A DNA stretch of 64,000 nt from IMG/VR virus record IMGVR_UViG_2713896899_000007, positions 1-64,000 of that record, one strand, 5' to 3'. Below the pieces are notes generated by a model that made no database searches, was not told where the DNA came from, and saw nothing but the letters and a program-made list of their open reading frames with translations. This stretch comes from a virus (Duplodnaviria > Heunggongvirae > Uroviricota > Caudoviricetes). Numbering within the stretch: position 1 is the first letter of the stretch; every line of letters starts with the position of its first letter. The position numbers and the translations under genes are program-made. Below, piece by piece: positions 11,036 through 17,078 of this stretch.

Positions 11036-14000
11036 TTAGTTACGTTGAGTGTTTGGGTTGAGTGATCCGCCAGGGCGTTTTTCTTGAGCGATAGTCTCAA
11101 GTACGACGGCTTTCACCCGTTTAGCAGCATTGTTCCATATGCTTTCTGTATCGCCGGATTCTGTCGTGCTACCGTCACTATGGACGTTGATCTCAATTGA
11201 TACAGGAGAAAGAACATTTCCGCCTCCACTCATACCATCGGTACTGAGCGTTACAGGGATTGTTCGGCCATCAGGCAATGGAACATACGCCTCATTCATA
11301 GAACCTTCCCCAAACAACGCTAATTGAGGTGAGTTAGCAATACCGCCTTTCTGGTATGCCCGGAGCGGGATCACGCCGTCTTTTCCGAATATTCCTCCAT
11401 TTGCAAACTTCGGGATTGCAGGAATGCCTTTAGTTCCGTCAGCCACACTGCTAGTTGCGGTTTTAGCAGAGCTTGATGTCACACTGTCGAAACCACCACC
11501 TGCCCATACTGAAACCAACCCAGATGCAACTGTCGCGCCGAAATTCAACCACTTATTACCAGAGCCGGAAGCATTAGCTCCAAGCATTGCAAACGCGGCA
11601 GACAGAGCACCGGTAACAGAGCTGAGGTTCTGCATCGAGAAGATGGAATCCTTCACTGCTTTTGTCTCAGCATCTTTGGCTTCGGTGCTATCAAATAGCC
11701 CTGATACCCAGCTACCAATCGCATTTGTTGCTGTGCCAATTGCGCTGGTGGTCTGCTGTGTCGTTTGCCCCAATCCAGTTACCGAACTGGACGTCTCCTT
11801 CGTGGCTTCTCCTACCGACTTGTCGCCGTTAACAGTGTTGCCCATTCGTACCCCTTGATTGGCAACGGCGGAAGCAACCCCGGTCAGCAAATTACCACTC
11901 TGTGAACTACCAGCTGCGGTGGTTCCCATCCCCAACATGTTCATTAGAGGCAGCGTGATCTGCGACTTCACGACCATATTGGTGATATCTTTCAAAATGG
12001 ACTGAGACAGGCTGGAGAAGCTCATCTTCCCGTTAATAACGAAATCAGTCAGGACATCAGTTAAGCCACTAAACAAATCAGTCCAGGTGCTTTCGATCTG
12101 CTCTGCCAGGTTTTCGTATTCCAGTGCCAACTTCTGCGTCGCAGTCCCCGTCTCTTTAATAAGCGCGGTATTGCCAGCAGCAATAAGTTGATTGATTTTC
12201 TTTGTATAAAGCGCCACGACTTTAGGATCAGACGCCTTATCACGAAGTTCTATCAACGCTTTGAGATTGCGGTTGTAGGTGTCTTCGAAATCAGCAACTT
12301 TCTCTTCACGAGACGGCGTATAGCCAGCACTAATAATGGAATCCGCCTCCGGTGCCCAAGTGGAGATCATCTGCTCAACATTGCGGCGATTAAACATCTC
12401 GCGATATTCAGGTGTCGCATTTTTGAGGTCCTCAAGACGTTTTTTCGCCTTGTCGATCATCTCTTGAGTGATGAACTCGTTAGGAACCGCATTAGCCAAA
12501 TCTGTCAGCGATTTCGTTGTATCGCGAAGAGACTGATCAAACGATACCGTAGCCTTAGAGCTTTCACCCATTTGCCCCATAAGCTGATCGGCTTTGTCCA
12601 GAGCCTTCTGGTATCCGGCTGCCAGTTTCTGTTGCGCTGCCTGTTCCTTCTTGGCCGCACGCTGCGAGGCGTTAGCTGATCGTTGGGCTGCTTTCTCGGC
12701 AGCTGCTGCATCCTGTTCACGAGCTTTAGTCAGTGCAGCAATGGCTGCGGCACGCTCTTCATCGCTCATTTTCTCCAGAGAGCTGGCACTGGATGCTTTC
12801 TGCAAATTAAGCTGCGTCTTGAGTTGTTTAGGCCCAATAATCGGCTTACCTTCGAAGTCCATCATCGGAGTGCCGTCAGGCAAAGTACGTTGATAAGTCG
12901 CAGAATCCATCTGGTTTCGCATATATTGCGCCAGCGCCTTCTGAGCTGCTTTATCAGTTGTACCTAACCCCAGAACAGTCCCCTGGTTTGACATTACGCC
13001 CTTACCAGTTTTGGCAGCGTTATCTCTCTCGAACTCTGCCTGAGTCAGTTCCTGAGCGACGACTTCCAAATTCTCCTGATAACCACGAATACTGCCTTGC
13101 AGTTTCTTGATCTGCTCGGTGTTTCCTTCCTTTTTCGCTTTTTCAAGCTGATCATTAAGAGTGGCTATTTGCCCCTCGACAGCATTCTTACGAGAAGAAA
13201 GTGAATCAACCAGTTTTTGCGCAGGCTCCAGATAGCTTTTGTTTACCGTTTCACGTAACGGTGCCAATAGTTTGTTCTTTTCGTCATCAGAAAGTGAATC
13301 GTCATCATTGATTTTTTGGATCTTCTCCAGAGCCTCTTGACGAGCTTTAGCGAATGTTGCCGCAAAGTCTCTATTCTCTTCCCGTATTTTCTCTATCTGT
13401 GATTCTGCCGCATCTTTTGCAAGACGTTTGGCTACAGCAATGTCTCCGCGTTCAATTGCCCCAGTAGTTTTATCGCGTTTCTTACGAAGGTCATTTAGCT
13501 CATTTTCTATACGCTTACGTTCATCCTGATTAATCTTTACTGTAGTTCCGGCCATACCCGGCCCATAAACCACCTTTTCGCCAGATTTTAACTCTTGTTC
13601 CTTTTGCGTGATTTGTTGCTCAAGACGCGCTTTATACTCCGCCATCTGTGCACGTTTGGCCGCTGTCATCGCCTCTGGTATTTTCCTAATCTCGTCAACG
13701 ACCTTTGAAGTTTCGCTGCGGAGCATGGTCATGTACGTGATTAGGCCAGCAACAGCTACAGTGGCAACTGTAAATGCTGCCCCTATAGGGTTTGCTGCAA
13801 TGAACGCCGTTAATCCAGCAAAAGCGCCTTTAAGCCCCGTAATCGCCCCACGGATGGCGAAAATAAGAGAGGGGATCGGAGCCAGCCCCATACGTGCCGC
13901 ACGATTGAATCGAGTTACTGCTGTAGCGCCGAGGTTAAATGGAGTCTGTATGGCGGTCGCCATCGTGGCAAAGGTGCTAACCATCTGGCTGCCAGCGCCA

Positions 14001-15622
14001 ACTCCCCCCATGATCCCTGCTCGCATCAGTTTGAACGCAACCATCGCGGCCACGACCTTACCGAGATTAATTACCAGCTCTTGGTTCTTTGCTAACCATT
14101 GAGCAAGCTGACGCAACCCATCGATTGCCGTCGTTAACCCCGAACCTAAAGAATTGGCAAACGAAATCCCTTCGGCGCTATTCATGATTGAAGCCAGTTC
14201 TTTCATCCCCTTTGATAGAGAATCCAGATATCCGGCCTGACCAACTCGATCAGCAAATAACGTGAATGACGTCTGAAGTTGCGCCAGCGCACCTGTGTAG
14301 GTTTGCATCATGTCTTTCGCTGCGTTCTCGTTCTCCGCACGCAGACCAACAAACATCAGAGACAACGCCTGCTTTGCCTCAACCGTACCGCTGGCAACGG
14401 CTTTAGTTAGTTCCCCCATAGTGATGCCTGCGGCGTCTGCCATTGCCTGCATCGCGTTAGGAACGGCTTCACCTAATTGCTGACGTAGCTCTTCCATTGA
14501 CACGACGCCCTTACCGGACATCTGCTGAACGGCCACAGCCGCACGTTTCAACAGCTCACTATCACCACCAAAACGAGCAACGGAGTCCACCAGCGCCTTC
14601 AGAGAACCATCGGTTGGATCTAAGCCAGCAGAACGAAACTTCACGAAGGAGTCTGTTAACGCCTGCATCGCGAACGGCGCATTTTGAGCCATGTCTACGA
14701 TGTACTTCATATCATCAGCGGCAGCCTGGCCAGGGTTGGACTTCTCCTTATTCAACCCTCGAAGCATCACCCGCATACGTTCCATTTCGGCCGCAGCTTC
14801 AACAATAGGCTTCTGCCACCCAAACATGATGTCAGTAACCGTTCTGGCTGCATCTCCGATCTCGCCAAGCAGGAAAATGTTGCCACGAAGGCCAGAGAAC
14901 ATACCTCCTTCGTTATTTTTACCGCTGTGGCCAGAAGCGCCGCTACGCTGCCTGCTACCGCTACCACCATCGCCACTTCCAGATGTACGAACGCGTACCG
15001 GCTTGCTAATCAGTTGCTGACGTCCGATAACTTCGTCCATCTGCTCACGAACCTTTTTCAGTCCCTCGGCAGCCTGACTCGTTGTGACACCCCAATTACT
15101 GAGTCGCTTCGTCGTGGTATTAAGGCGCGTATTCATGCCACTCACGGACGCAGAGGCTTCTTTGACCTCCGTACCAAAGCGGCTTGCGCTTTTGCTTGCA
15201 TAGGTCGCCCAATCAGAGAAATCATTTAGCTCTGATTGCACTTTACGTAATGACGCGGTGAGTTTATCTACTGAAGAAGTTGTCGTATCGACGCGCTCAA
15301 TCAGGGCTTTAAGACCAGAATTGAGGCTGGTGATGTTGCCACGCATTTTACGCGTAGCATCTGAAGCAAGCTCAAAACCGGCAGCTACATCCTGTAGTTT
15401 ATCTGCCGTAGAATCGAGCTTGCTTTCCAGAACGCCAATGATACGGGCGACCGAACCCAAAGAGCGTTCAAAGGTTTGGATTTTTTGAGCAGGCTTTGTT
15501 ACCTGCTCACCAAATCGAGTAAGCAGTTTCCCCGCACGATCGATTGACGCTGTAAACTGTTTGTCTTCCAGCGACAGGATAAACTCTACGTTTTGTGACA
15601 TTCCCTTGTCATCCTCTGCCAA
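11036..15622 (-). CDS. tail tape measure protein, 1528 aa
   Basis: very long helical protein with Gly/Ala-rich hydrophobic middle; sits between the G/T chaperone pair and M. Confidence 0.85.
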   Translation of the reverse strand: MAEDDKGMSQNVEFILSLEDKQFTASIDRAGKLLTRFGEQVTKPAQKIQTFERSLGSVARIIGVLESKLDSTADKLQDVAAGFELASDATRKMRGNITSLNSGLKALIERVDTTTSSVDKLTASLRKVQSELNDFSDWATYASKSASRFGTEVKEASASVSGMNTRLNTTTKRLSNWGVTTSQAAEGLKKVREQMDEVIGRQQLISKPVRVRTSGSGDGGSGSRQRSGASGHSGKNNEGGMFSGLRGNIFLLGEIGDAARTVTDIMFGWQKPIVEAAAEMERMRVMLRGLNKEKSNPGQAAADDMKYIVDMAQNAPFAMQALTDSFVKFRSAGLDPTDGSLKALVDSVARFGGDSELLKRAAVAVQQMSGKGVVSMEELRQQLGEAVPNAMQAMADAAGITMGELTKAVASGTVEAKQALSLMFVGLRAENENAAKDMMQTYTGALAQLQTSFTLFADRVGQAGYLDSLSKGMKELASIMNSAEGISFANSLGSGLTTAIDGLRQLAQWLAKNQELVINLGKVVAAMVAFKLMRAGIMGGVGAGSQMVSTFATMATAIQTPFNLGATAVTRFNRAARMGLAPIPSLIFAIRGAITGLKGAFAGLTAFIAANPIGAAFTVATVAVAGLITYMTMLRSETSKVVDEIRKIPEAMTAAKRAQMAEYKARLEQQITQKEQELKSGEKVVYGPGMAGTTVKINQDERKRIENELNDLRKKRDKTTGAIERGDIAVAKRLAKDAAESQIEKIREENRDFAATFAKARQEALEKIQKINDDDSLSDDEKNKLLAPLRETVNKSYLEPAQKLVDSLSSRKNAVEGQIATLNDQLEKAKKEGNTEQIKKLQGSIRGYQENLEVVAQELTQAEFERDNAAKTGKGVMSNQGTVLGLGTTDKAAQKALAQYMRNQMDSATYQRTLPDGTPMMDFEGKPIIGPKQLKTQLNLQKASSASSLEKMSDEERAAAIAALTKAREQDAAAAEKAAQRSANASQRAAKKEQAAQQKLAAGYQKALDKADQLMGQMGESSKATVSFDQSLRDTTKSLTDLANAVPNEFITQEMIDKAKKRLEDLKNATPEYREMFNRRNVEQMISTWAPEADSIISAGYTPSREEKVADFEDTYNRNLKALIELRDKASDPKVVALYTKKINQLIAAGNTALIKETGTATQKLALEYENLAEQIESTWTDLFSGLTDVLTDFVINGKMSFSSLSQSILKDITNMVVKSQITLPLMNMLGMGTTAAGSSQSGNLLTGVASAVANQGVRMGNTVNGDKSVGEATKETSSSVTGLGQTTQQTTSAIGTATNAIGSWVSGLFDSTEAKDAETKAVKDSIFSMQNLSSVTGALSAAFAMLGANASGSGNKWLNFGATVASGLVSVWAGGGFDSVTSSSAKTATSSVADGTKGIPAIPKFANGGIFGKDGVIPLRAYQKGGIANSPQLALFGEGSMNEAYVPLPDGRTIPVTLSTDGMSGGGNVLSPVSIEINVHSDGSTTESGDTESIWNNAAKRVKAVVLETIAQEKRPGGSLNPNTQRN

Positions 15623-15878
15623 ATATTTGCATCAGTTGCTCTTTGGCGTCAGGGTCTGCCTTATCCTGGCTTGGATCGTAGACTTTATCTGTTACGACTG
15701 GTCTTCCAATCCTGAGTTGCAAACCCTCCATGAACGCCTTCACAGCCTCGCCATCCGCCTGGGACGCACGGGCGACTTGTAAGTTGCGGACATCCTCTTC
15801 CGCACGCAGACGGTCTATATTGCGACTGAGCATCCAGAACATCGTGAGAGGTATGTTCAATAGCTCTAATGGCGACAC
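15609..15878 (-). CDS. T segment of tail assembly chaperone, probably expressed as a G-T fusion by -1 frameshift
   Basis: reading frame is -1 relative to G and stays open across the G stop by my translation; track start is a GTG. Confidence 0.5.
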   Translation of the reverse strand: MSPLELLNIPLTMFWMLSRNIDRLRAEEDVRNLQVARASQADGEAVKAFMEGLQLRIGRPVVTDKVYDPSQDKADPDAKEQLMQIFGRG

Positions 15879-15958
15879 GGCGTAGTGAGCAACTACACGA
15901 CTGAAATAGAATCCGAGATCTATTGAGACGGTCCTTGTCCCGGATTCATCACGGGAAA

Positions 15959-16276
15959 TTACTTTGCCCCTTCGCCAGCCGCTTTTTCGTTTTCTTCATC
16001 AATCACTTCCATAGCGAAGGTGAAGATCTGCTGGAGTTGCGGAACAGTCAGTTTTTCAAGAATTTCGTCAGGTACTGAAGGGATAACCTTACGAACCAGA
16101 TCTGCATAAGCTGTCACTTGCTCAACAGGAGACATGTTCATGAGATCTTTTCCTTCCATCTGCTTGATGGAAACGAACAGACCTACCGTCATTTCAACGA
16201 TGGGATATTCCTGACCGCCAAATTTGATGCTTTTCTTCGGAGGCAGAATGGAATCTAGATCGAGTAATTTGGTCAT
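15959..16276 (-). CDS. tail assembly chaperone, G-like
   Basis: small acidic protein between major tail gene and tape measure. Confidence 0.55.
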   Translation of the reverse strand: MTKLLDLDSILPPKKSIKFGGQEYPIVEMTVGLFVSIKQMEGKDLMNMSPVEQVTAYADLVRKVIPSVPDEILEKLTVPQLQQIFTFAMEVIDEENEKAAGEGAK

Positions 16277-16331
16277 TGGTTAAAATCCTTTTAAAAGAGA
16301 GGCCCATCCTGAGCCTCTGCTTAATTACTGA

Positions 16332-17078
16332 TTAATCTGCGGGGTTAATCGTTACTGACTTAGTTGCCTTCTTACCACCGCTATTGCTGGTGAAGGAGAT
16401 ATTTGTAGAACCCTGCGCCACACCACGTACCAGACCCGTTTGATCTACCGTGGCCTTTTCCTGGTCTTCGGATTCCCAAACACCGGTTTTGTCTGCGGCA
16501 TCAGCTGGAGTGATTTCGGCTGTCAGTTGCACAGTTTCTCCAGCTTTTACGGTTGGAGATTCCGGTGAGATCGACACAGTTTTTACCGGTTTAGGGCCGC
16601 TCATTCTTCCCAGAACGCCTTCGTCATCAGGGTACGCACTGAACTGAACAGAGAACACACGAACATCATCAGACTGGTAAGTCATGGTGAAGTTACCTGC
16701 GGTCGCAGCTTTCGGGATAGTCAGAACGTAGTCGGTAGTGTCCTGCGGAGTCAGAACCAGCTCTTTGGCTACGTCGATCAGGTTGACACCCTGTGCGGAA
16801 GTGATGGTCACCGCATTGTCGTCTTCGTTCAGAGTAGACCCCGGCATCAGATCGACCATATTTTTCAACACAGACTCGGCCAGCGGCGCAGTAATGGTAA
16901 TGTTACGACCCTGCACCAGCTCGGACATAATTGTCTGGCCGTGCTGGTCGACGGTGACTTTCAGCGTTTCAGTGGCTACTTCAACCTGAACACCACCTTT
17001 GGTGTAACCCAAATCCACACCACCAAACGACACCTTACAGGCACCAAGTTTGATGTTTTTTACATGGGTATTAGACAT
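16332..17078 (-). CDS. major tail (tube) protein with C-terminal Ig-like (Big_2) domain
   Basis: position upstream of G; C-terminal Big_2-like segment; start moved to MSNTHVK, which has an AAGGAG RBS. Confidence 0.7.
   Translation of the reverse strand: MSNTHVKNIKLGACKVSFGGVDLGYTKGGVQVEVATETLKVTVDQHGQTIMSELVQGRNITITAPLAESVLKNMVDLMPGSTLNEDDNAVTITSAQGVNLIDVAKELVLTPQDTTDYVLTIPKAATAGNFTMTYQSDDVRVFSVQFSAYPDDEGVLGRMSGPKPVKTVSISPESPTVKAGETVQLTAEITPADAADKTGVWESEDQEKATVDQTGLVRGVAQGSTNISFTSNSGGKKATKSVTINPAD

What the first reader, a model, noticed from the sequence alone, without database searches (positions are those of the whole stretch)
15609..16276. G/T tail chaperone pair with a -1 frame relationship but no canonical slippery heptamer
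ORF 15609-15878 is in the -1 frame relative to G (15959-16276). By my translation its frame is open upstream across the G stop and closed by tandem TGA codons about 13 codons before that stop. A G-T fusion would therefore need a -1 shift within the A-rich stretch GAAGAAAACGAAAAAGCGGCTGGCGAAGGGGCAAAG, which lacks an X XXY YYZ site.
Basis: partly seen in the sequence, partly recalled or inferred. Interest (0 to 1): 0.4.

Follow-up and report, generated by a model that had tools for sequence, protein, structure and literature searches.

The report
Unannotated tail-chaperone frameshift, degenerate slip site
This is the usual phage tail-assembly chaperone pair, in which a few ribosomes slip back one base at the end of the first gene to make a fused protein; here, in a widespread SSU5-type phage-plasmid, the slip almost certainly happens at the last codon (GCA AAG, just before the stop), a weakened but known type of slippery site that no database record annotates.

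Summary
G (16276..15959, minus strand) is followed by a -1 frame that stays open from 15995 to 15609. Tandem TGA codons close it upstream at 16001-15996, and the overlap holds no X_XXY_YYZ heptamer.

The window is an SSU5-like phage-plasmid, identical here to E. coli plasmid p009_B. Gene order is tail tube, G, T, tape measure.

The 80 nt annotated as intergenic evolves as T-frame coding sequence: changes fall mainly on third positions and indels are 3 nt long.

Relatives narrow the shift site. In SSU5, Y. pestis pMT, Cronobacter and Raoultella-type loci a TGA closes the -1 frame four codons before the G stop. The GAA AAA site is lost in one Klebsiella lineage. Only GCA/GUA_AAG followed by UAA/UAG is invariant, at window 15967-15959.

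Eight distant members of the same G family were read. Four carry G_GGA_AAG, A_AAA_AAG or G_GGA_AAC against the stop, two carry G_GGG_AAG, and two carry the SSU5-type GCA_AAG. The SSU5 clade therefore has a degenerate heptamer, an NNA_AAG hexamer of the IS1222/cdd kind.

A hairpin follows the stop across the family, with compensatory changes, but it is weak in this window.

Verdict: an ordinary G/GT -1 frameshift, a new and unannotated member with a known non-canonical site. Predicted GT is 222 aa, with junction ...GEGAK|VISRDE.

The parts
16332..17078 (-). Major tail (tube) protein gene with a C-terminal Big_2 Ig-like domain fused in frame.
   Evidence: phrog_1280 plus major-tail PHROGs, and Pfam Big_2 at E 5.8e-26. 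Annotated as a 747-nt CDS in Cyrano, SSU5 and p009_B.
15959..16276 (-). Gene G: the tail assembly chaperone, 105 aa, the product of normal translation.
15996..16001 (-). Tandem TGA TGA in the -1 frame. This is the upstream limit of any productive -1 shift in this window.
   Evidence: Translation of the -1 frame.
15962..15967 (-). Proposed shift site GCA_AAG. tRNA-Lys re-pairs from AAG (15964-15962) to AAA (15965-15963).
   Evidence: This is the only shift-prone element kept in all 33 distinct SSU5-clade sequences: GCA AAG in 30 and GTA AAG in 3. In SSU5, Cronobacter and Raoultella-type loci the -1 frame opens only 4 codons before the stop. Four of eight distant family members have canonical heptamers at the same position.
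15959..15961 (-). G stop codon UAA, directly 3' of the shift site. Its first two bases are read as part of GUA (Val) in the -1 frame.
   Evidence: The stop is UAA or UAG and always adjacent to AAG across the clade. The K|V junction is conserved in all eight distant members read except L108, which has N|L.
15609..15962 (-). T-frame coding sequence: 117 codons (VISRDESG...IFGRG) plus stop TGA at 15611-15609. It is expressed only as the C-terminal part of GT.
   Evidence: Translation. Matches phrog_1131. The first 28 codons, annotated as intergenic, differ between relatives at codon positions 1:2:3 as 307:151:699. The rest of T gives 1334:811:2674. Indels are multiples of 3.
15896..15953 (-). Hairpin 3' of the stop. 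Lower helix is 15953-15948 with 15901-15896; upper helix is 15947-15938 with 15918-15909. It starts 8 nt after AAG and 5 nt after UAA. Candidate frameshift stimulator.
   Evidence: RNAalifold and strand folding. 96.1% of cells are paired over 29 distinct sequences, 3 pairs have compensatory changes, and 0 of 500 shuffles reach the covariation score. The family-wide z-score minimum falls exactly at the stop. In this window it is weak: -14.7 kcal/mol against an alternative MFE of -16.7, with z about 0.
15983..15986 (-). Rejected as the conserved shift site.
   Evidence: It is lost in the Klebsiella hvKP859 lineage (GAA GCC GCG). In SSU5, pMT, Cronobacter and L090 it lies upstream of a -1 frame TGA. 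A_AAA is the weakest of the six active tetramers in E. coli (PMC4066793).
11036..15601 (-). Tape measure protein gene, which starts 8 nt after the T stop.
   Evidence: phrog_1292, Pfam TMP_3 and Tape_meas_lam_C.

Best explanation
G and T are the tail assembly chaperone pair of an SSU5-type siphovirus phage-plasmid.

Most ribosomes translate G (105 aa) and terminate at UAA 15961-15959. A minority slip back one nucleotide at the last sense codon. The single E. coli tRNA-Lys (anticodon mnm5s2UUU) detaches from AAG (15964-15962) and re-pairs with AAA (15965-15963). Translation then continues with GUA AUU UCC... to the TGA at 15611-15609.

The product is a 222-aa GT fusion: all of G, then VISRDESG...IFGRG. 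By analogy with lambda, the G part of G and GT coats the tape measure protein, and the T part recruits the tail tube protein.

The site is a degenerate form of the heptamers that other members of the same G family carry at exactly this position (G_GGA_AAG, A_AAA_AAG, G_GGA_AAC). The P-site codon has become GCA or GUA, so only the A_AAG half can re-pair. This is an NNA_AAG hexanucleotide site.

Two things probably raise the frequency: the hairpin that begins 8 nt after AAG, and possibly slow decoding of the adjacent stop.

Shown here: frames, conservation, restriction of the shift window, coding signature of the linker, hairpin conservation. Inferred: that slippage occurs, its frequency, whether tRNA-Lys is in the A or the P site when it slips, and the function of the proteins.
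For: 1. Identity and gene order. The window matches SSU5-like phages and plasmids. Gene order is tail tube, G, T, tape measure.

2. The -1 relationship and open frame are confirmed.

3. The linker annotated as intergenic is under purifying selection in the T frame. Third-position changes dominate and indels are 3 nt.

4. No start codon is conserved. GTG 15878 is GTA in Klebsiella phages, and gene callers give T starts yielding 74 to 131 aa.

5. The shift window is limited to 4 codons in SSU5, pMT, Cronobacter, L090 and L091, and to 9 codons in Photorhabdus.

6. GCA/GTA AAG TAA/TAG is invariant in 33 distinct sequences. Baseline codon use in these genes is AAG 41% of Lys, GCA 24% of Ala and GTA 26% of Val.

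7. Eight distant G homologues (24-48% identity) were read. All have a T-like -1 ORF open across the stop with the slip site abutting it:
- GCA_AAG: L100, L102
- G_GGG_AAG: L101, L103
- G_GGA_AAG: L104, L105
- A_AAA_AAG: L107
- G_GGA_AAC: L108
.

8. Of 137 full-length family representatives, 51 end in K. Endings are GK 24, KK 18, GN 9, and only AK 2 and VK 2.

9. A_AAG is the most shift-prone tetramer in E. coli. NNA_AAG sites are used by IS1222 and occur in cdd (PMC4066793; PMC5009743).

10. Hairpin: 96% of cells paired, 3 compensatory pairs. The mean fold z-score of -2.1 to -2.5 occurs only in the window that starts at the stop.

11. G has a chaperone-like predicted fold.
Against: - No protein evidence for GT exists here.
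- Without a stimulator, A_AAG gives only about 0.15% frameshifting in reporters, and 5.6% with a strong pseudoknot (PMC4066793). Output could be very low.
- In this particular window the hairpin is not the predicted MFE and its z-score is about 0.
- Hairpin spacers vary in distant members, from about 1 to 12 nt.
- G matches no Pfam chaperone family and shows no profile similarity to lambda G.
- UAAU is an efficient termination context in E. coli (my own knowledge). This argues against a strong pause at the stop.
Confidence: 0.8

Rival explanations
1. Same fusion and same tetramer, but the event is a 'shifty stop'. Peptidyl-tRNA-Lys slips from AAG to AAA in the P site while the A site holds UAA and waits for a release factor. 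The stop codon is then an essential part of the signal, and the GT:G ratio depends on release-factor activity. (This is a sub-variant of the best explanation, not exclusive of it; the confidence given is the share of the best explanation's probability that I assign to this route.)
For: The stop is directly adjacent to AAG in every SSU5-clade sequence, as UAA or UAG, and in all eight distant members read. The hairpin starts 5 nt after the stop, a canonical spacer for a ribosome with UAA in the A site. Ribosomes paused at stops are known to recode (PMC6815119; 'shifty stop' in PMC5009743).
Against: Many family representatives end GKx, GNx or KKx. Their probable slip site would then be one codon away from the stop, so adjacency is not universal (inferred from protein ends only). 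Members with full heptamers fit ordinary two-tRNA slippage. UAAU is a strong terminator context (my own knowledge).
Confidence: 0.25
2. The shift occurs further upstream in the A-rich stretch, at GAA_AAA_GCG (A_AAA, 15986-15983) or A_AAC (15992-15989).
For: In this window and its closest E. coli relatives the -1 frame is open from 15995, and both tetramers are in phase. A_AAA lies 8 codons before the stop. That is close to the spacing at which ribosomes trailing one paused at a stop frameshift in reporters (PMC6815119).
Against: In SSU5, pMT, Cronobacter and L090 a shift there would run into a -1 frame TGA (GGT GAA). AAA is replaced by GCC in the hvKP859, L090 and L089 lineages. A_AAA is the weakest active tetramer and A_AAC is not among the active ones.
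Confidence: 0.04
3. There is no recoding. T is an independent small protein translated from its own start (GTG 15878, ATG 15833 or similar), as every public record annotates it.
For: All phage and plasmid records annotate two separate hypothetical proteins.
Against: Annotated starts disagree, giving 74, 77, 86, 89, 108, 116 and 131 aa. GTG 15878 is not conserved. I saw no Shine-Dalgarno motif before either start when reading the sequence. The 28 codons upstream of GTG evolve as coding sequence in the T frame right up to the G stop, and this linker holds part of the conserved IDLGFYFSRV motif. No promoter or terminator lies between G and T.
Confidence: 0.05
4. Termination at UAA is followed by reinitiation in the T frame at a nearby non-canonical codon such as AUU 15959-15957. 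This would give a free full-length T.
For: The stop and the first T-frame codons overlap.
Against: The codon after GUA varies: AUU, AUA, GUU, GUA, ACA or AAA. No start-like codon is conserved. In lambda, T is known only as part of GT (PMC5009743).
Confidence: 0.02

Closest known systems
Phage lambda G / GT tail assembly chaperones (Levin 1993; Xu 2004, 2013, 2014, as summarised in PMC5009743)
   Same: Two small ORFs sit between the tail tube gene and the tape measure gene. The second is in the -1 frame and has no start of its own. The slip is at an ...A_AAG near the 3' end of G. A low-level fusion product is expected.
   Different: Lambda uses the full heptamer G_GGA_AAG, placed 5 sense codons before the G stop. 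Here the P-site codon is GCA and the site touches the stop. There is no detectable sequence similarity to lambda G (hhalign probability 0.6%). As I recall, lambda needs no 3' structure; here a conserved hairpin follows the stop.
NNA_AAG hexanucleotide -1 sites: IS1222 (G_CGA_AAG) and B. subtilis cdd (A_CGA_AAG); the A_AAG tetramer (Licznar 2003; Sharma 2014)
   Same: Only tRNA-Lys can re-pair (AAG to AAA). The preceding codon ends in A but cannot itself re-pair. This is a low-efficiency site that depends on context or stimulators.
   Different: The preceding codon is GCA or GUA rather than CGA. Both are read in E. coli by cmo5U34 tRNAs (my own knowledge), which fits the 'wobble-prone tRNA favours shifting' rule quoted in PMC5009743. 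The site sits in a phage chaperone gene and abuts the stop.
E. coli dnaX (A_AAA_AAG with an upstream SD-like element and a 3' hairpin)
   Same: The same tRNA-Lys AAG-to-AAA re-pairing, with a 3' stem-loop at a similar spacing.
   Different: No conserved SD-like element lies upstream here: the GGN of GGNGAAG varies through all four bases. The heptamer is incomplete. The expected efficiency is far lower than the roughly 50% of dnaX.
Other members of the same G family (phrog_893), e.g. L104, L105, L107, L108
   Same: Homologous G and T, the same gene order, a slip site abutting the stop, and a hairpin whose 3' arm is made of the conserved T-motif codons.
   Different: They carry canonical heptamers (G_GGA_AAG, A_AAA_AAG, G_GGA_AAC). 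The SSU5 clade, L100 and L102 carry only the hexamer.

Membership tests
Phage tail assembly chaperone G/GT with programmed -1 frameshift | Two small ORFs located between the major tail protein gene and the tape measure gene, on the same strand | tested here: met
   ORF list and family scans. The same order is seen in 14 or more related loci.
Phage tail assembly chaperone G/GT with programmed -1 frameshift | The second ORF is in the -1 frame, is open across the first ORF's stop, and has no conserved start of its own | tested here: met
   Coding signature of the linker. Inconsistent annotated starts.
Phage tail assembly chaperone G/GT with programmed -1 frameshift | A canonical X_XXY_YYZ slippery heptamer in the overlap | tested here: not met
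   None in 16003-15959. Only GCA_AAG is present. Canonical heptamers occur at the homologous position in the distant family members L104, L105, L107 and L108.
Phage tail assembly chaperone G/GT with programmed -1 frameshift | G has the tail-assembly-chaperone fold or belongs to a chaperone sequence family | tested here: inconclusive
Phage tail assembly chaperone G/GT with programmed -1 frameshift | A GT fusion protein is made at a few percent of G and is required for tail assembly | not testable with these tools
   This needs a reporter assay, mass spectrometry or genetics.
NNA_AAG hexanucleotide / A_AAG tetramer -1 shift sites | An in-frame A_AAG that allows tRNA-Lys to re-pair from AAG to AAA | tested here: met
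   A_AAG at 15965-15962, in phase with G. Invariant in 33 distinct clade sequences.
NNA_AAG hexanucleotide / A_AAG tetramer -1 shift sites | The 5' codon NNA is read by a wobble-prone tRNA, which favours release of its third base | not testable with these tools
   Only GCA and GUA occur at this position. The rule is quoted in PMC5009743. That both codons are read by cmo5U34 tRNAs in E. coli is my own knowledge, not tested here.
NNA_AAG hexanucleotide / A_AAG tetramer -1 shift sites | A flanking stimulator (3' structure or 5' SD-like element) raises an otherwise near-background shift | tested here: inconclusive
   A 3' hairpin is conserved in the clade and the wider family. It is weak in this window (z about 0; -14.7 against an MFE of -16.7 kcal/mol). 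No conserved SD-like element was found.

The most novel reading that the evidence does not exclude
The stop codon, the slip site and the hairpin form one integrated cassette conserved across a large, unannotated chaperone family (phrog_893). In the SSU5 clade the heptamer has decayed to a hexamer because termination pausing (a -1 'shifty stop') plus the hairpin now carry the stimulation. The G:GT ratio, and so tail assembly, would then respond to release-factor activity or the host's translational state. The same cassette (C_CCA_AAG plus stop) is reused in some relatives to add the Ig domain to the tail tube protein.
Probability: 0.2. Interest if true: 0.5.

Novelty: new member of a known kind. 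Interest (0 to 1): 0.3.

Why it matters
SSU5-like phage-plasmids are very common in Enterobacterales. 785 plasmid records match this region, including Y. pestis pMT and plasmids of Klebsiella, E. coli, Salmonella and Enterobacter.

None of the public records I inspected (four phage and four plasmid records) annotates the GT fusion. They list T as a hypothetical protein with arbitrary starts. G and T sit in PHROG families of unknown function.

Recognising the frameshift corrects that annotation. It also assigns a function to phrog_893 and phrog_1131.

The case is a natural series, from full heptamer to NNA_AAG hexamer at one fixed position, that could be used to study how much of a slippery site is needed when a stop codon and a hairpin follow it. 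It does not change what is known about recoding.

Tried and rejected
- Upstream SD-like stimulator. GGNGAAG lies 7-8 nt before A_AAG, but the N varies through all four bases, the extra GGGG is specific to the E. coli/Salmonella subclade, and distant members have nothing consistent. Rejected.
- Small hairpin UCCCG/CGGGA starting 5 nt after AAG. It is 87.6% paired but nearly invariant, shows no covariation, equals its shuffles, and excludes the longer hairpin. Not supported.
- Rfam scan of 15500-16400 at E up to 1: no match.
- Pfam on G and T: no match. PDB sequence profile search: only chance hits. hhalign against lambda G: probability 0.6%.
- Transcriptional slippage: the longest A run is 5 nt, too short on established knowledge. 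Rejected without a test.
- +1 frame: it closes within 5-30 codons and gives no conserved product in any relative.
- Promoter or terminator between G and T: none above shuffled expectation.
- The search for related loci with the 53-sequence alignment failed because no conserved stretch was found. The genome-contig scan gave only 7 loci, all close relatives.
- P0003, a 139-aa 'fused' G-T from a metagenome, looked like a natural in-frame fusion. It is explained by a 1-nt loss in the A5 run followed by another indel, so it is probably an assembly error and not evidence.
- Literature: no paper in the held library links SSU5 with a frameshift. Licznar 2003 could not be read.
Full report
**1. What the window is**

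The region 15400-16500 is 99% identical to Escherichia phage Cyrano, 87% to Salmonella phage SSU5 and about 86% to Klebsiella SSU5-like phages. It is 100% identical to E. coli plasmid p009_B. 785 plasmid records match it, from Klebsiella, Escherichia, Enterobacter, Yersinia pestis pMT, Salmonella and others. The element is an SSU5-type phage-plasmid.

The genes lie on the minus strand:
- a tail tube protein with a Big_2 Ig-like domain (17078..16332)
- G (16276..15959)
- the T frame
- a 1521-aa tape measure protein (15601..11036)

The four phage and four plasmid records whose annotation I inspected list G and T as two hypothetical proteins.

**2. Checking the observation**

G encodes 105 aa ending ...AAGEGAK and stops at TAA 15961-15959. 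The listed ORF 15878..15609 is in the -1 frame of G. That frame reads SD**RKRKSGWRRGKVISRDESG... from 16007. It is closed by TGA TGA at 16001-15996 and open from 15995 to the TGA at 15611-15609.

The overlap has no in-frame X_XXY_YYZ heptamer. It has three in-frame tetramers: A_AAC (15992), A_AAA (15986) and A_AAG (15965).

**3. Is the 'intergenic' stretch translated?**

Alignments with relatives at 70-90% identity show that 15958-15879 changes mostly at T-frame third positions and that its indels are 3 nt long. Over 12 diverse sequences, pairwise differences in the first 28 T-frame codons fall at positions 1:2:3 as 307:151:699. The rest of T gives 1334:811:2674. The linker is therefore coding, in the T frame, right up to the G stop.

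GTG 15878 is GTA in the Klebsiella phages. Gene callers give T starts yielding anything from 74 to 131 aa. No promoter or terminator separates G and T. An independently initiated T is unlikely.

**4. Where the shift must occur**

In SSU5, Y. pestis pMT, Cronobacter, and the L090 and L091 loci, GGC is GGT. This creates a -1 frame TGA (GGT GAA) only four codons before the stop. In Photorhabdus the window is nine codons. In the Klebsiella hvKP859 lineage GAA AAA GCG has become GAA GCC GCG.

The only shift-prone element common to all is A_AAG at the last sense codon. Among 33 distinct clade sequences the last three codons are:
- GCA AAG TAA in 25
- GCA AAG TAG in 5
- GTA AAG TAA in 3

In these genes AAG is only 41% of Lys codons, GCA 24% of Ala and GTA 26% of Val.

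The predicted product is all of G followed by VISRDESG..., 222 aa in total.

**5. The wider family**

A profile of G finds 490 representatives at E up to 0.001. All 53 that were scanned fall in phrog_893, of unknown function, and none of them matches a Pfam family convincingly.

I read the DNA of eight distant members (24-48% identity). All have a T-like -1 ORF with the motif IDFGF.FCR that is open across the stop, and five of the eight are followed by a gene with tape-measure Pfam domains or a very long ORF. All have the slip site touching the stop:

| Locus | Last codons |
|---|---|
| L100 | GAA GCA AAG TAA |
| L102 | GAA GCA AAG TAG |
| L101 | GAG GGG AAG TAA |
| L103 | CAG GGG AAG TAA |
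| L104 | GAG GGA AAG TAA |
| L105 | GCG GGA AAG TAA |
| L107 | GAA AAA AAG TAG |
| L108 | GCG GGA AAC TGA |

Of 137 full-length representatives, 51 end in K. Endings are GK 24, KK 18, GN 9, and only AK 2 and VK 2. Many others end GKx, GNx or KKx.

So the family normally carries a canonical heptamer (G_GGA_AAG, A_AAA_AAG or G_GGA_AAC) at or next to the stop. The SSU5 clade has a degenerate version in which only the A_AAG half survives. In lambda, by comparison, G_GGA_AAG lies five sense codons before the G stop.

**6. Relation to known shift sites**

The Atkins review describes Z_ZZN tetramers as the minimal -1 site. It lists A_CGA_AAG in B. subtilis cdd and G_CGA_AAG in IS1222. It states that in NNA_AAG the efficiency depends on the wobble propensity of the tRNA that reads the 5' codon (PMC5009743).

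Sharma et al. rank A_AAG as by far the best tetramer in E. coli. It gives 5.6% with the IS3 pseudoknot but only about 0.15% without a stimulator (PMC4066793).

GCA and GUA are both read in E. coli by cmo5U34 tRNAs. This is my own knowledge and fits that rule, but it was not tested here.

**7. A 3' hairpin**

RNAalifold on 11 clade sequences predicted a stem pairing GAAUCCGG with UCGGAUUC, plus a lower helix CGCGAU with GUCGUG.

On 29 distinct sequences the full hairpin is 96.1% paired and three pairs have compensatory changes:
- U-A to G-C, linked to a synonymous GGA to GGC change
- A-U, G-U and G-C alternatives, linked to GAU/GAC
- G-C to A-U

No shuffle out of 500 reaches the covariation score, and sliding the partner by one column drops pairing to 35-53%. 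A smaller hairpin nearer the stop shows no covariation.

Folding 67 nt from the stop gives these z-scores:

| Sequence | z |
|---|---|
| window | 0.00 |
| SSU5 | -1.40 |
| L005 | -2.47 |
| L006 | -2.03 |
| L089 | -5.07 |
| L090 | -1.42 |
| L100 | -0.12 |
| L102 | -1.06 |
| L101 | -2.56 |
| L103 | -1.82 |
| L104 | -3.18 |
| L105 | -4.32 |

A control scan from -300 to +300 in 20-nt steps shows that the window starting at the stop is the clear minimum. Its mean z is -2.1, or -2.5 over nine diverse lineages. Other offsets range from +0.7 to -1.6.

In the distant members the 5' arm, made of variable linker codons, has a quite different sequence. It still complements the codons of the conserved T motif (D-F-G-F-x-F-C-R). 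L107 forms a hairpin of -32.6 kcal/mol.

In window coordinates the lower helix is 15953-15948 with 15901-15896, and the upper helix is 15947-15938 with 15918-15909. The hairpin begins 8 nt after AAG and 5 nt after UAA. Either spacing is canonical for a stimulator.

There is a caveat. This window carries CGU rather than CGC at 15951, which makes a G-U pair. The hairpin scores -14.7 kcal/mol against an alternative MFE of -16.7. In Cyrano, one base different, the hairpin is the MFE at -18.0. Spacers in distant members vary from about 1 to 12 nt.

**8. What G is**

An AlphaFold model built from the 53-sequence alignment has mean pLDDT 82. Its last four residues are disordered, which suits a linker at the junction.

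Sequence methods find no link to solved chaperones or to lambda G. Membership therefore rests on gene order, the recoding architecture and a modest fold similarity.

**9. Mechanism and rivals**

The best-supported reading is a programmed -1 ribosomal frameshift at GCA_AAG, with tRNA-Lys re-pairing to AAA, aided by the hairpin, giving G plus a minor GT.

I cannot decide whether tRNA-Lys slips in the A site (the hexanucleotide model) or in the P site while UAA waits for a release factor (the shifty stop). The universal adjacency of the stop in all DNA examined favours some role for it. Family members ending GKx or KKx, and the full heptamers, favour ordinary slippage.

The other rivals are each contradicted by comparative data: a shift at the upstream A_AAA, an independent start, and reinitiation.

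**10. Verdict**

The finding is real and correctly read in outline. It is an ordinary G/GT frameshift: a new, unannotated member whose slip site belongs to a known non-canonical class. It is useful for annotation and as a natural heptamer-to-hexamer series, but not surprising to a recoding or phage-assembly specialist.

Noticed in passing
L090 1184-1260 and L092 (equivalent position); compare window 16590-16560: In the Klebsiella/Raoultella-type relatives the 163-aa tail tube gene ends GCC CCA AAG TAA (or TAG). This is the canonical heptamer C_CCA_AAG touching the stop. The -1 frame continues K-V-...VTGVTV into an 83-aa Big_2 Ig-like domain. These relatives probably add the Ig domain by a second -1 frameshift with the same layout. 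In the window the Ig domain is fused in frame (...GPKPVKTVSISPES...), and Photorhabdus L089 has no Ig extension.
   Followed up: partly
window about 15661-15595 (offset +300 from the G stop), and the same place in relatives: The second-lowest mean fold z-score in the control scan (-1.5 to -1.6) falls on the window covering the T stop and the tape-measure start (ATG 15601, preceded by AAGGGA). This may be a structure affecting tape-measure translation.
   Followed up: no
Public records of this region (L001-L008; proteins P0034-P0153): T is annotated with at least seven different starts, giving 74, 77, 86, 89, 108, 116 and 131 aa, and in one plasmid not at all. G and T sit in PHROGs of unknown function (phrog_893, phrog_1131). 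None of the eight records inspected joins them.
   Followed up: yes
P0003 (ENA metagenome protein, 139 aa): This gene call reads ...EENEK-SGWRRGKVISRDESG..., an in-frame G-T fusion made by loss of one A in the GAAAAAG run. It then goes out of frame again. It is most likely a homopolymer assembly error rather than a natural fusion.
   Followed up: partly
L091 (JGI metagenome contig, 19 kb): A Cronobacter-type copy in which G is scrambled at its N-terminus (80 aa called), T is cut short by a stop (…LAMF*), and the tape measure region is split into several small ORFs. This is either a decaying element or a poor assembly. The GTA AAG TAA junction is still intact.
   Followed up: no
L101, L103 (distant G-family members): Two members carry G_GGG_AAG before the stop. 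tRNA-Gly can re-pair there (GGG to GGG) but tRNA-Lys cannot (AAG to GAA). This resembles the GGGGGAA motif reported for actinophage chaperones in the PRFect paper.
   Followed up: no
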